64,000 nt of DNA from the human T2T-CHM13v2.0 reference genome, Homo sapiens, in assembly GCF_009914755.1 (NCBI RefSeq), contig NC_060938.1. The stretch is one strand, 5' to 3'. A program made the translations under genes and the position numbers. This document shows, piece by piece, positions 1-56,104 of the stretch. How positions within the stretch are numbered: position 1 is the first letter of the stretch; every line of letters starts with the position of its first letter. The notes beneath the pieces were generated by a model. It was given only the letters and a program-made list of their open reading frames with translations. It made no database searches and had not been told where the DNA came from.

Positions 1-182
1 CTGCCTCAGCCTCCCAAATAGCTAGGATTACACCACCATGCCCAGCTAGTTTTTGTGCTTTTAGTTGAGACAGGGTTTCCCCATGTTGGCCAGGCTGGTA
101 TCAAACTCCTGACCTCAGATGATCCACCTGCCTCAGCCTCCCAAAGTGCTGGGATTACAGGTGTGAGCCACCACACCCAGCC
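1..182 (-). mobile_element. Alu, partial at window edge
   Basis: Reverse-complement Alu sequence. Confidence 0.9.
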
Positions 183-41574: not shown

Positions 41575-41900
41575 GTTAGTAACTATTAAAATGGTATCAG
41601 AAGGGACAAATTAATCAAGTCATTAATTTATAATGAAACAGTAGACCTTATTGTTTATGATTAAAATTGACTCATAATTTTCAAATGAAGTTGAATAACA
41701 TTAGGTAGCTACATTTTTAGCTTTGAAAATAGCTTACAGCTTTTGTATGTTGTAGAGAGTCAGTAGTGTCAAAGCTTAATGTTTTGTAATAATTGAGGTG
41801 TAAATGTGTGTGTAAAATTGCTGAAATAAAAAGTTGGCAAAATTAGTTCCTTCTGTTTCAATTGCGTTTAGAAGAAAAAGGGGGCTGCTGCCTGTGTAGG

Positions 41901-41987
41901 TTTTTTTTTTTTTTTTTTTTAAGTGAAAGCAAGTTTATTAAGAAAGTAAAGGAATAAAAGAAGGGCTGCTCCATCGGCAGAGCAGCC
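41901..41987 (-). mobile_element. Short polyadenylated MER41-LTR R-region-like retroposed insert
   Basis: Minus strand reads ggctgctctgccgatggagcagcccttcttttattcctttactttcttAATAAActtgctttcactt-A20; degenerate TSD. Confidence 0.7.
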
Positions 41988-42113
41988 TGCATGTGGAGTT
42001 TTTAAGCCTGCCATTTATTATTATTTTTTTAGATAATAACGTTTGAAAGGAATAATAAATATTTTTTTGACAGAAATTTCCACAATATTTAAATACTGTT
42101 TTATTTTTATCAG

Positions 42114-42239
42114 AATCACTTGATGGCTGCCAGGAAGGCATTTGACAGATTTTTCATACACTATCCGTATTGCTATGGTTACTGGAAAAAGTATGCAGAC
42201 CTTGAAAAGCGGCACGACAACATTAAACCATCAGATGAG
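42114..42239 (+). CDS. PRPF39: PRPF39 exon 3 ([42 protein letters not shown]), HAT repeat
   Basis: atcAG acceptor and GAG|GTGCGT donor. 126 nt; contains the Prp39-family [12 protein letters not shown] motif. Confidence 0.96.
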
Positions 42240-42897
42240 GTGCGTACATCACTGAATAAACTTATCTCCAATAGGTACTGTAAGCCAATTAATAACAAAA
42301 CAAAGATTTTTTTTTTTTTTTTTTTTTGGCTGGCAGTACCTACCATTTATGGTCAAACAATTTTTATAGGGTATTTATTTGCATTTGTCACTCTTGTGGC
42401 ATTTGTAGCTAATATTTTCTCTCTTTGTTGGCAGGTGCGTTAAACCTCTACAGTTTGTCAAGCTTTGCAGTGCAAGCCTCTGTATTACACTGCAGCTTAA
42501 CAAGTAGGGCAGGGCTTTTCTCTCACTTACATTTATTTCTCATTTTCCAAACAATATAGTTGGTTTGCTAGTCACATTTGCTACGTCTTATTGCATTTTT
42601 GGTCAGACGCTGTCATTGATGCTCTAATGGGTCTGTGCCCTATGGTCTGTAACCCAAAGCCTGCCCACACAACCCGGTCAGAATGCAGGGACTGCTGCGC
42701 TTTGAAGATCAAGACTCTGCACGTGGGGATCAGAACATTGCCATGTTCTATCCAACCTCCACCCAAATGGTAATGGTAGATTATTTAAACAAAATTCCAG
42801 TAATTAGTATTTCTAAGGTTCACCGGATAACACAGTGTTGCCTCTCTGTTAAGAAATAATTAAATATTTGAAGTACAGTTTGCTGTTTTCTTCTTAG

Positions 42898-43016
42898 GTT
42901 TATCGGCGGGGGCTTCAGGCAATACCTCTTAGTGTTGACCTTTGGATACATTATATAAACTTCTTAAAAGAAACATTGGACCCTGGTGATCCTGAGACAA
43001 ACAATACAATAAGAGG
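42898..43016 (+). CDS. PRPF39: PRPF39 exon 4 ([40 protein letters not shown])
   Basis: ttcttAG acceptor and AGG|GTATGT donor. 119 nt; HAT motif [10 protein letters not shown]. Confidence 0.95.
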
Positions 43017-55791: not shown

Positions 55792-56104
55792 GTAAGAAAA
55801 TCATGTGCTCTTAAACTTGAATATATTATAAACATTGATCTAGTGACTAACCTTTTTTGTACTTCTGTTGAATGTTGTTCATATAACTATATCTGTTGCA
55901 TTAGGAGATGGTCTGCTTGCAACCAGATTTGACTGCTGCATATGCCAACCTCGTTGCCTCTCTTCGTCCTTCCTTACAGAAACTAGTCTAGTGGTTCAAT
56001 AAAGGTGCTGAATGGGTTTAAAAATAGAATTTTATCGTTCTGTCACAAATTTAATGGCTTGTTCAACTGTAAATTATTCAGTATTTCCTCTTTTCTGTAT
56101 GTAG

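What the first reader, a model, noticed from the sequence alone, without database searches (positions are those of the whole stretch)
42607..42769. Second intron-3 exon is both a poison exon and a potential alternative N-terminal coding exon
Seen: acceptor ttgcatttttggtcAG and donor ATG|GTAATG define a 163-nt exon. In the exon 3 frame it reads ACG CTG TCA TTG ATG CTC TAA (stop 42625-42627). An ATG at 42683 (A at -3) opens MQGLLRFEDQDSARGDQNIAMFYPTSTQM, which ends in phase 0 and continues in frame into exon 4 ([10 protein letters not shown]...). That would give a 548-aa PRPF39 lacking the first 150 residues, with further in-frame ATGs at 42743 and 42767. I recall a database PRPF39 isoform with this N-terminus but cannot verify it. 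Inference: reinitiation or an internal TSS could produce an N-truncated HAT-repeat protein rather than simple decay.
Basis: partly seen in the sequence, partly recalled or inferred. Interest (0 to 1): 0.7.

Follow-up and report, generated by a model that had tools for sequence, protein, structure and literature searches.

The report
Conserved second poison exon in PRPF39
A 163-base alternative exon inside intron 3 of the human splicing-factor gene PRPF39 is real and conserved from mammals to birds, and it most likely switches the gene off by introducing an early stop rather than making a shortened protein.

Summary
Exon X (42607-42769, 163 nt) has AG/GT borders. In the PRPF39 frame it stops at TAA 42625-42627 (codon 157). 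ATG 42683 opens 29 codons that run in frame into exon 4, giving 548 aa.

The splice motifs alone are not special: 247 intronic AG..GT pairs in PRPF39 score at least as well. The exon is real because 13 database proteins carry this N-terminus joined to exon 4. Seven are mammalian, including a 548-aa cluster of 136 members and contig ORFs identical to human. Six are avian, with 27 of 29 residues identical. Two further clusters, of 2 and 38 members, read exon 3 straight into 'TLSLML-stop'.

It is therefore a conserved cassette that truncates the frame 142 nt before the next junction, a classic NMD design. The published PRPF39 poison exon lies in intron 8.

The "N-truncated isoform" exists as a gene model, but nothing shows it is translated. 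Twenty ATGs precede 42683 in the cassette mRNA, two of them out of frame inside the exon, and intron 3 has no CpG island. The neighbouring intron-3 exon is equally conserved in non-coding frames. Verdict: a new member of a known kind; translation is unproven (about 0.1).

The parts
42114..42239 (+). PRPF39 exon 3 (constitutive), ends in phase 0 at codon 150; donor GAG|GTGCGT
   Evidence: Annotation supplied with the finding; phase computed; donor scored (7 of 9 consensus matches, U1 duplex -7.8 kcal/mol)
42587..42606 (+). Acceptor region of exon X: branch-point-like CTTAT (A 17 nt from the AG) and a pyrimidine tract with 12 of 17 pyrimidines
   Evidence: The acceptor is mid-range among the 18 annotated acceptors of the window (9-17 of 17 pyrimidines)
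42607..42769 (+). Exon X: 163-nt alternative cassette in intron 3. GC is 0.52 against 0.35 and 0.30 in the flanking intron pieces. Single copy in the genome
   Evidence: Junction to exon 4 in 13 of 13 database proteins. Junction from exon 3 in 2 of 44 N-terminal fragments
42625..42627 (+). Premature TAA in the PRPF39 frame (codon 157), 142 nt upstream of the exon X/exon 4 junction. A second frame-0 stop lies at 42703
   Evidence: The same TLSLML tail ends P0015 and P0023
42627..42644 (+). Two out-of-frame ATGs (42627, overlapping the stop as TAATG, and 42642). They open 67- and 62-codon frames that overlap ATG 42683 and end in exon 4
42683..42769 (+). 29-codon open frame from ATG 42683 (A at -3), in frame with exon 4. 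It is the N-terminus of the 548-aa gene models. In-frame ATGs at 42743 and 42767
   Evidence: Identical in 7 of 7 mammalian proteins and 27 of 29 identical in 6 of 6 bird proteins
42770..42781 (+). Weak donor GTAATG (6 of 9 consensus matches, U1 duplex -5.1 kcal/mol), followed 6 nt later by a second donor GTAGAT (-5.0)
   Evidence: It is the fourth weakest of the 18 donors scored. The published intron-8 poison exon has a similar donor (-5.3)
42898..43016 (+). PRPF39 exon 4 (constitutive), begins in phase 0 with [10 protein letters not shown]
   Evidence: Annotation
42435..42503 (+). The other intron-3 alternative exon ('exon A'). Its acceptor ttggcAG|GTGCGTTAA gives VR-stop after exon 3 and rebuilds the exon 3 donor 9-mer. 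The 3' end at 42503 (CAA|GTAGGG) is inferred only
   Evidence: A wombat model (P0030) and a bat model (P0019) use this acceptor
55905..56004 (+). For comparison: 100-nt exon in intron 8, read as the published PRPF39 poison exon. It is found on the same contig ORFs as exon X
   Evidence: The tail of P0005 maps here. Boundaries. The papers place the poison exon between exons 8 and 9 (PMC13408128, passages)

Best explanation
Exon X is a genuine, deeply conserved alternative cassette exon of PRPF39. When it is spliced between exons 3 and 4 of transcripts that start at the normal promoter, the reading frame stops after six extra codons (codon 157), far upstream of ten further exon junctions. The mRNA then encodes only an 18-kDa N-terminal stump and should be removed by nonsense-mediated decay. 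It is thus a second unproductive-splicing ('poison') exon of PRPF39, alongside the published one in intron 8.

Its weak donor resembles the intron-8 donor. This suggests, by inference only, that inclusion rises with PRPF39/U1 activity and so feeds back negatively on PRPF39 output.

The 548-aa 'isoform' with the N-terminus MQGLL... is the longest open frame that annotation pipelines find on these transcripts, not a demonstrated protein.

Shown here: the exon, both junctions, the stop, and the conservation. Inferred: decay, feedback, and lack of translation.
For: Sequence: exon borders, the frame-0 stop at 42625 and its 142-nt distance to the next junction.

Use of the X->exon 4 junction:
- All 13 proteins found with the 58-aa window query carry the exon X peptide fused to exon 4 sequence.
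- P0004 equals the human X-4-5-6-7-8 translation plus intron 8 read-through (317 of 317).
- P0002 equals a human X-4-2-3 translation (227 of 227).

Use of the exon 3->X junction from the normal start codon:
- P0015 (156 aa, 2 members) and P0023 (153 aa, 38 members) end ...KQSDETLSLML. That is 2 of the 44 N-terminal fragments examined.

Conservation:
- The 29 residues are identical in 7 of 7 mammalian entries and 27 of 29 identical in 6 of 6 bird entries, with no length change.
- NCBI names the bird and lemur entries isoform X2 or X3.

Nucleotide-level rather than protein-level constraint in this intron:
- In the neighbouring exon A, the human frame-0 reading after its stop is 18 of 18 identical to a wombat model.
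- The frame-1 reading is 23 of 23 identical to a bat model.
- The TLSLML segment lies outside the 29-codon frame and is also conserved.

Against translation of the 548-aa frame:
- 20 upstream ATGs.
- Two out-of-frame ATGs inside the exon.
- No CpG island in intron 3.

Precedent in the same gene: an NMD-inducing exon between exons 8 and 9, conserved between mouse and human, whose inclusion depends on PRPF39 itself and on TRNAU1AP (PMC6582350, PMC13408128, PMC11389820; passages read). Its donor scores -5.3 against -5.1 for exon X.
Against: - No expression data could be consulted. Inclusion level, response to NMD inhibition and dependence on PRPF39 or TRNAU1AP are all untested.
- The exon 3->X junction was seen only in non-human mammalian clusters. 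A human member may be hidden by the 90% clustering.
- The 29-codon frame, its ATG and its length are preserved from mammals to birds. That is also what a coding exon would show.
- I could not obtain orthologous DNA to separate synonymous from non-synonymous change. The attempt to get the overlapping frame from the protein database found nothing.
- De Bortoli et al. call the intron-8 inclusion isoform only a weak NMD target, so decay of exon X transcripts may also be partial.
- The contig ORFs come from assemblies, which can join isoforms that do not occur on one molecule.
Confidence: 0.75

Rival explanations
1. Dual use. Besides triggering decay, exon X transcripts are translated from ATG 42683 (or 42743/42767), by reinitiation after the 156-codon frame or from an internal start site. 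The product is a 64-kDa PRPF39 that lacks residues 1-150 but keeps the dimerising C-terminal HAT domain.
For: - The frame is open and joins exon 4 in phase, with A at -3.
- The ATG, the length and 27 of 29 residues are kept in birds.
- Pipelines annotate the 548-aa product in many species (cluster of 136 members).
- ATG 42683 lies 56 nt after the stop. From general knowledge, that spacing suits reinitiation better than the two ATGs at 0 and 15 nt.
- Pfam still finds HAT_PRP39_N positions 65-168 of 168 and the whole HAT_PRP39_C domain in the 548-aa product.
- Dimerisation is through the C-terminal domain (PMC6582350, passages).
Against: - 20 ATGs precede 42683 in the cassette mRNA, so leaky scanning is excluded.
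- By established knowledge, reinitiation after a 156-codon frame is inefficient.
- Two out-of-frame ATGs open frames that overlap 42683.
- Only a start site between 42645 and 42682 would make 42683 the first ATG, and there is no CpG island.
- The truncation removes profile positions 1-64 of 168 of the N-terminal HAT domain, cutting inside the folded domain (mouse HAT-NTD residues 74-251).
- Conservation is equally high in non-coding frames of the neighbouring exon.
- The 30-residue peptide has no relatives of its own; the single hit is spurious.
- No paper holds the peptides or links PRPF39 with reinitiation.
Confidence: 0.12
2. Exon X marks incompletely processed, nuclear-detained or circular PRPF39 RNAs rather than a cytoplasmic NMD substrate. 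Its inclusion goes together with other unproductive events and lowers output without needing translation-dependent decay.
For: - The contig ORFs that begin in exon X all end in intron 8. P0003 stops three codons into it, P0004 continues as intron 8 read-through, and P0005 continues as the intron-8 poison exon.
- P0002 has exon 4 followed by exon 2, the order expected of a back-spliced RNA.
- 26 of the 44 N-terminal fragments read into intron 2.
- A cancer study lists PRPF39 among factors with retained introns (PMC7733475, passages).
Against: - Assemblers can join isoforms that do not occur on one molecule.
- P0002 is a single sequence from one 953-nt contig, longer than the 751-nt exon 2-3-X-4 circle, and it ends in intron 3.
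- The full 548-aa gene models join exon X to all downstream exons without retained introns.
- No paper on a PRPF39 circular RNA was found.
Confidence: 0.08
3. Exon X is a chance pseudo-exon, or splicing noise with no function.
For: By crude site scores, 247 intronic AG..GT pairs in PRPF39 are at least as good. The supplied human RefSeq annotation lists only one transcript, without this exon.
Against: - It is used in transcript-derived ORFs and gene models of mammals and birds, with unchanged length and 27 of 29 residues identical.
- Its GC content stands out from the flanking intron.
- It is single copy and not repeat-derived.
Confidence: 0.05

Closest known systems
The published PRPF39 poison exon in intron 8 (De Bortoli et al. 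2019, PMC6582350; Schmok et al. 2024, PMC11389820; PMC13408128, 2026)
   Same: - Same gene.
- A short cassette (100 nt at 55905-56004, by my mapping) that breaks the frame.
- A weak donor (-5.3 against -5.1 kcal/mol).
- Conserved across species.
- Found on the same contig ORFs as exon X.
   Different: - Exon X lies in intron 3 and stops the frame at codon 157 rather than after codon 392. The product would lack nearly all HAT repeats instead of only the dimerisation domain.
- None of the papers read mentions an intron-3 exon.
- Regulation by TRNAU1AP or PRPF39 is shown only for the intron-8 exon.
Highly conserved poison exons of splicing regulators, such as those of SR protein genes (Lareau et al. 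2007 and Ni et al. 2007, as cited in PMC9808567; not read by me)
   Same: A cassette with an in-frame stop in a splicing-factor gene, conserved far more deeply than a neutral intron, with conservation that does not follow a reading frame (exon A control).
   Different: Nucleotide-level ultraconservation of exon X itself could not be measured here. Only protein-level proxies in one frame (29 residues) and in a second frame (6 residues) were available. NMD sensitivity is untested.
N-terminally truncated proteoforms made by reinitiation downstream of an early premature stop (general knowledge, recalled; no paper read)
   Same: An in-frame ATG with a fair context lies 56 nt after the stop, and the downstream frame is intact.
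   Different: Here the preceding frame is 156 codons long, two out-of-frame ATGs intervene, and no translation evidence exists.

Membership tests
AS-NMD poison cassette exon | Alternative exon with functional splice sites, joined in real transcripts to both flanking constitutive exons | tested here: met
   X->exon 4 in 13 of 13 proteins, two of them identical to the human translation. Exon 3->X in 2 of 44 N-terminal fragments, both from non-human mammals. The exon is absent from the one supplied RefSeq transcript, so it is alternative.
AS-NMD poison cassette exon | Inclusion creates a stop codon more than about 50-55 nt upstream of a downstream exon-exon junction | tested here: met
   TAA at 42625-42627 lies 142 nt before the X/exon 4 junction, with ten more junctions downstream.
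AS-NMD poison cassette exon | The inclusion isoform is stabilised when NMD or translation is blocked | not testable with these tools
   No expression data were available. For PRPF39 this is shown only for the intron-8 exon (PMC6582350).
AS-NMD poison cassette exon | Conservation beyond that of the surrounding intron and not tied to a reading frame | tested here: inconclusive
   27 of 29 residues are kept in birds, and the 6-codon frame-0 tail is kept in 2 mammalian clusters. Frame-independent conservation was shown for exon A only.
Alternative N-terminal coding exon / N-terminal proteoform | Open frame that joins the downstream coding sequence in phase | tested here: met
   ATG 42683 plus 29 codons ends in phase 0 and gives a 548-aa frame.
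Alternative N-terminal coding exon / N-terminal proteoform | The start codon is reachable: first AUG of a transcript with its own start site, or efficient reinitiation | tested here: not met
   20 ATGs lie upstream in the exon1-2-3-X mRNA. Two out-of-frame ATGs lie within the exon. There is no CpG island in intron 3. Start-site data (CAGE) were not available, so an internal start is not excluded.
Alternative N-terminal coding exon / N-terminal proteoform | Direct evidence of translation (initiation peaks, peptides) | not testable with these tools
   A full-text search for four predicted peptides returned 0 papers. Supplements and proteome repositories were not searched.
Alternative N-terminal coding exon / N-terminal proteoform | Codon-level signature of protein selection (excess of synonymous change) | not testable with these tools
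   No orthologous nucleotide sequence could be fetched. Only three amino-acid changes are visible (L4P, I18M, Q28R).
Recursive splice site / RS-exon (for exon A at 42435, noticed in passing) | An acceptor directly followed by a donor motif, so that splicing rebuilds a 5' splice site | tested here: met
   ttttctctctttgttggcAG|GTGCGT. After joining, the 9-mer GAGGTGCGT equals the exon 3 donor, with the same U1 duplex energy of -7.8 kcal/mol.
Recursive splice site / RS-exon (for exon A at 42435, noticed in passing) | Evidence of two-step intron removal (lariats, intermediates) | not testable with these tools
   No RNA data. Intron 3 is only 658 nt, unlike the long introns in which recursive splicing is known (recalled).

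The most novel reading that the evidence does not exclude
The 29-codon frame of exon X is truly translated in amniotes. Inclusion of the exon would then switch PRPF39 from the 78-kDa protein to a 64-kDa form. That form lacks the disordered N-terminus and the first part of the N-terminal HAT domain but keeps the dimerisation domain. It could pair with full-length PRPF39 and change or poison U1 snRNP recruitment to weak 5' splice sites. One exon would thus work both as a decay switch and as a switch to a dominant modifier.
Probability: 0.1. Interest if true: 0.6.

Novelty: new member of a known kind. Interest (0 to 1): 0.35.

Why it matters
PRPF39 helps U1 snRNP use weak 5' splice sites. Its dosage is set by a feedback circuit with TRNAU1AP that has so far been described through a single poison exon in intron 8.

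A second cassette in intron 3, conserved from mammals to birds, and a third exon beside it would mean the gene has several unproductive-splicing switches. These may respond to different inputs. Knockdown, minigene and isoform-quantification studies that look only at intron 8 may therefore miss part of the regulation.

The result is also a caution for annotation. The 548-aa 'isoform' carried by many databases is most likely the longest open frame of a decay substrate.

Tried and rejected
- **Repeat or pseudogene origin.** The 163 nt match only themselves in the genome, so this is rejected.
- **Known RNA family or unusual RNA fold.** Rfam gave only sub-threshold chance hits. Folding z-scores were 0.20 for exon X and -0.42 for exon A. 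Rejected.
- **Structure of the 548-aa product.** AlphaFold2 on a 12-sequence alignment gave mean pLDDT 44 and pTM 0.29, too poor to say anything about the new N-terminus. No fold search was run.
- **Independent relatives of the 29-residue peptide.** The exhaustive representative search returned one protein, P0059. It is a 1459-aa tandem-repeat protein matched at 38% identity in 12 stretches, a summed chance match.
- **Overlapping-frame test of synonymous sites.** The frame-2 peptide of exon X found no database protein, so the test could not be made.
- **Literature.**
  - Nothing was found on an intron-3 exon in the PRPF39 papers read. Of the papers listed by the searches, I opened seven.
  - Searches for Q86UA1-2, four predicted peptides, PRPF39 circular RNA and PRPF39 with reinitiation each returned 0 papers.
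  - PRPF39 with recursive splicing returned one paper, which I did not open.
  - The supplements of PMC11389820 held only an antibody row and a blot label for PRPF39; one PDF there could not be read.
- **Malurus model P0052.** Its tail (VRRARGQHCHQSQSQQ) could not be mapped cleanly and is left unexplained.

Full report
**1. What is there**

The window is human chr14 with PRPF39 on the + strand. Intron 3 (42240-42897, 658 nt) holds the stretch in question.

- Reading the DNA confirms the acceptor ttgcatttttggtcAG|ACG and the donor ATG|GTAATG. They bound a 163-nt exon, 42607-42769, called exon X here.
- The annotated coding parts translate to 669 aa, and exon 3 ends in phase 0 at codon 150.
- With exon X included, the frame reads TLSLML and stops at TAA 42625-42627, which is codon 157. 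A second frame-0 stop follows at 42703.
- ATG 42683 (A at -3, C at +4) opens 29 codons, MQGLLRFEDQDSARGDQNIAMFYPTSTQM. These end in phase 0 and continue into exon 4, giving a 548-aa frame of 64.3 kDa against 78.4 kDa for the full protein.
- In-frame ATGs lie at 42743 and 42767.

- Two out-of-frame ATGs, at 42627 (overlapping the stop as TAATG) and 42642, open 67- and 62-codon frames that overlap ATG 42683 and end in exon 4.
- A second donor, ATG|GTAGAT, lies 6 nt downstream.

**2. Is it more than chance?**

Not by the motifs alone.

- The donor matches 6 of 9 consensus positions and pairs with the U1 5' end at -5.1 kcal/mol. That is the fourth weakest of the 18 donors I scored: 17 annotated donors plus exon X.
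- The acceptor has 12 of 17 pyrimidines.
- In PRPF39's 28,634 nt of introns, 302 acceptors and 115 donors are at least as good. They form 247 pairs 50-250 nt apart.
- These scores are crude. The U1 motif and the consensus were recalled, and no MaxEnt model was available.
- The exon does stand out by GC content: 0.52 against 0.35 and 0.30 in the flanking intron pieces. It is single copy in the genome, so it is not a repeat or part of a processed pseudogene.

**3. Evidence that the exon is used**

*X->exon 4 junction.* I searched the large protein database with the window's own read-through translation from ATG 42683 (58 aa, of which the first 30 equal the spliced product). Of 14 candidates, 13 passed, and all 13 are PRPF39 proteins in which the exon X peptide is fused to exon 4 sequence.

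- Seven are mammalian.
  - One is a 548-aa cluster of 136 member sequences whose representative is named PRPF39 isoform X3 of a lemur. It is 543 of 548 identical to the human conceptual product.
  - Two others are pig and deer entries.
  - Four are ORFs from assembled contigs.
- Two of those contig ORFs equal human translations exactly. P0004 is X-4-5-6-7-8 followed by intron 8 read-through (317 of 317). P0002 is X-4-2-3 (227 of 227). P0005 matches X-4..8 plus the intron-8 exon at 298 of 299.
- Because these are continuous ORFs across exons, the contigs must be spliced RNA.
- Six entries are avian, three of them named isoform X2 by NCBI. They carry MQGPLRFEDQDSARGDQNIAMFYPTSTRM or a close variant. 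That is 27 of 29 residues identical to human, with no length change.
- One starling ab initio model places part of the exon in frame inside a full-length protein.

*Exon 3->X junction.* A second search used the exon 2 translation and was restricted to short proteins. It returned 44 N-terminal fragments, sorted:

| Class | Number of 44 |
|---|---|
| End ...KQSDETLSLML, i.e. exon 3 spliced to exon X with the same six codons (P0015, 2 members; P0023, 38 members; both non-human mammals) | 2 |
| Read into intron 2 | 26 |
| Continue past exon 3 with 'VR' (3 end there, 3 one residue later, 5 run on with longer tails) | 11 |
| End exactly at the end of exon 3 | 1 |
| Other | 4 |

Exon X is therefore a cassette used in transcripts that carry the normal start codon.

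**4. What it most likely does**

- A stop at codon 157, 142 nt upstream of the next junction and followed by ten more junctions, is the textbook configuration for nonsense-mediated decay (established rule; distances).
- The encoded stump is 156 aa (18.2 kDa). It would contain the disordered N-terminus and Pfam HAT_PRP39_N positions 1-70 of 168 (P0015).
- PRPF39 is already known to be controlled this way, but by a different exon.
  - De Bortoli et al. describe an alternative exon, conserved between mouse and human, whose product would lack the C-terminal dimerisation domain (PMC6582350, passages).
  - The 2026 Nature Communications paper places the poison exon between exons 8 and 9. It shows that its inclusion needs both TRNAU1AP and PRPF39 (PMC13408128, passages).
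  - Schmok et al. report a TRNAU1AP-dependent 'unannotated poison exon' in PRPF39 without naming the intron in the text I read (PMC11389820, section 10). The 2026 paper equates it with its own.
- I mapped that exon to 55905-56004 (100 nt) through the tail of P0005. Its donor, AAG|GTGCTG, scores -5.3, like exon X at -5.1.
- PRPF39 promotes the use of weak 5' splice sites (PMC9808567, passages). I therefore infer that exon X inclusion could also rise with PRPF39 activity and feed back negatively. This step is inference only.

**5. The proposed N-truncated protein**

The recalled database isoform exists as gene models in many species. Those models are what a longest-ORF rule yields on a cassette-containing transcript. 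Several results argue against real translation.

- In the exon1-2-3-X mRNA, 20 ATGs precede 42683. Scanning ribosomes cannot reach it. Only reinitiation after a 156-codon frame could, which by established knowledge is inefficient.
- The two out-of-frame ATGs lie in the way.
- An internal start site would have to fall between 42645 and 42682 to make 42683 the first ATG. Intron 3 has no CpG island: observed/expected CpG is at most 0.54 in 200-nt bins.
- The truncation cuts inside the folded N-terminal HAT domain. The 548-aa product keeps Pfam profile positions 65-168 of 168. In mouse this domain spans residues 74-251 (PMC6582350).
- The 30-residue peptide has no relatives of its own.

The strongest point in favour is conservation of the ATG, the length and 27 of 29 residues in birds. 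An internal control weakens it.

- In the neighbouring intron-3 exon (exon A, from 42435), the human frame-0 reading after its own stop is 18 of 18 identical to the tail of a wombat model.
- The frame-1 reading is 23 of 23 identical to a bat model.
- The TLSLML segment of exon X lies outside the 29-codon frame and is also conserved.

Sequence in this intron is thus held constant at the nucleotide level regardless of frame, as is typical of poison exons in splicing-factor genes. I could not obtain orthologous DNA, and the overlapping-frame trick found nothing. The coding question therefore stays open, and I put it at about 0.1.

**6. Comparison and novelty**

Exon X works like the conserved poison exons of splicing regulators and like PRPF39's own intron-8 exon.

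- It meets the structural criteria that could be tested: alternative use, both junctions, and stop position.
- The functional criterion, stabilisation on NMD block, could not be tested.
- None of the PRPF39 papers I read mentions an intron-3 exon. The searches for the peptides, the UniProt isoform label, reinitiation and circular RNA returned nothing.
- The exon is, however, already present in automatic gene models.

I file it as a new member of a known kind, of moderate interest to people working on the PRPF39/TRNAU1AP circuit.

**7. Limits**

- All evidence for use comes from protein-database entries: automatic gene models and ORFs of assembled contigs. It does not come from read counts.
- The human exon 3->X junction was not seen directly.
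- The AlphaFold model was too poor to use.
- Figures and most supplements of the papers were not visible.

Noticed in passing
window 42435-42503 (acceptor at 42434|42435): There is another alternative exon in intron 3. The strong acceptor ttttctctctttgttggcAG is followed directly by GTGCGTTAA. Joining it to exon 3 gives VR-stop and rebuilds the exon 3 donor 9-mer GAGGTGCGT, a layout like a recursive splice site.

A wombat model (P0030) and a bat model (P0019) use this acceptor. Their tails are 18 of 18 and 23 of 23 identical to two different human frames. Three database fragments that end ...SDEVR (a seal and two birds) fit it but could also be intron read-through. The 3' end at 42503 is inferred only.
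   Followed up: partly
window 43016 -> 41232 (protein P0002): One 953-nt contig ORF equals the human exon X - exon 4 - exon 2 - exon 3 translation plus 6 nt of intron 3 (227 of 227). Exon 4 followed by exon 2 is the order of a back-splice, so this may be a circular or rearranged RNA containing exon X. The frame from ATG 42683 runs across that junction into the normal PRPF39 frame. It is a single sequence and could be an assembly artefact. No paper on a PRPF39 circular RNA was found.
   Followed up: partly
window 55792-56004 (intron 8) with 42607-42769: The three contig ORFs that start in exon X and run to exon 8 all go on into intron 8. P0003 stops three codons into it, P0004 continues as intron 8 read-through, and P0005 continues as the 100-nt intron-8 poison exon. 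The unproductive events may co-occur on the same molecules, or the assembler may have joined them.
   Followed up: partly
window 41575-42113 (intron 2): 26 of the 44 short N-terminal PRPF39 fragments in the protein database, from mammals, birds and other vertebrates, read from exon 2 straight into intron 2 (...VEQEVS...). This suggests that intron 2 is often retained in assembled transcripts.
   Followed up: no
window 42769-42781: Tandem donors lie 6 nt apart, ATG|GTAATG|GTAGAT, with nearly equal U1 pairing (-5.1 and -5.0 kcal/mol). Use of the second would add two codons (VM) to the 29-codon frame. All 13 database proteins use the first.
   Followed up: no
window 42688|42689 (protein P0014): A starling ab initio model joins exon 3 to an internal AG of exon X (ATGCAG|GG). 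This gives an in-frame 27-residue insertion with no stop. The human site has a poor pyrimidine tract, so this is probably a prediction artefact.
   Followed up: no
protein P0052 (Malurus model): After exon 3 its tail reads VRRARGQHCHQSQSQQ. It seems to mix two frames of exon X and could not be mapped cleanly.
   Followed up: no
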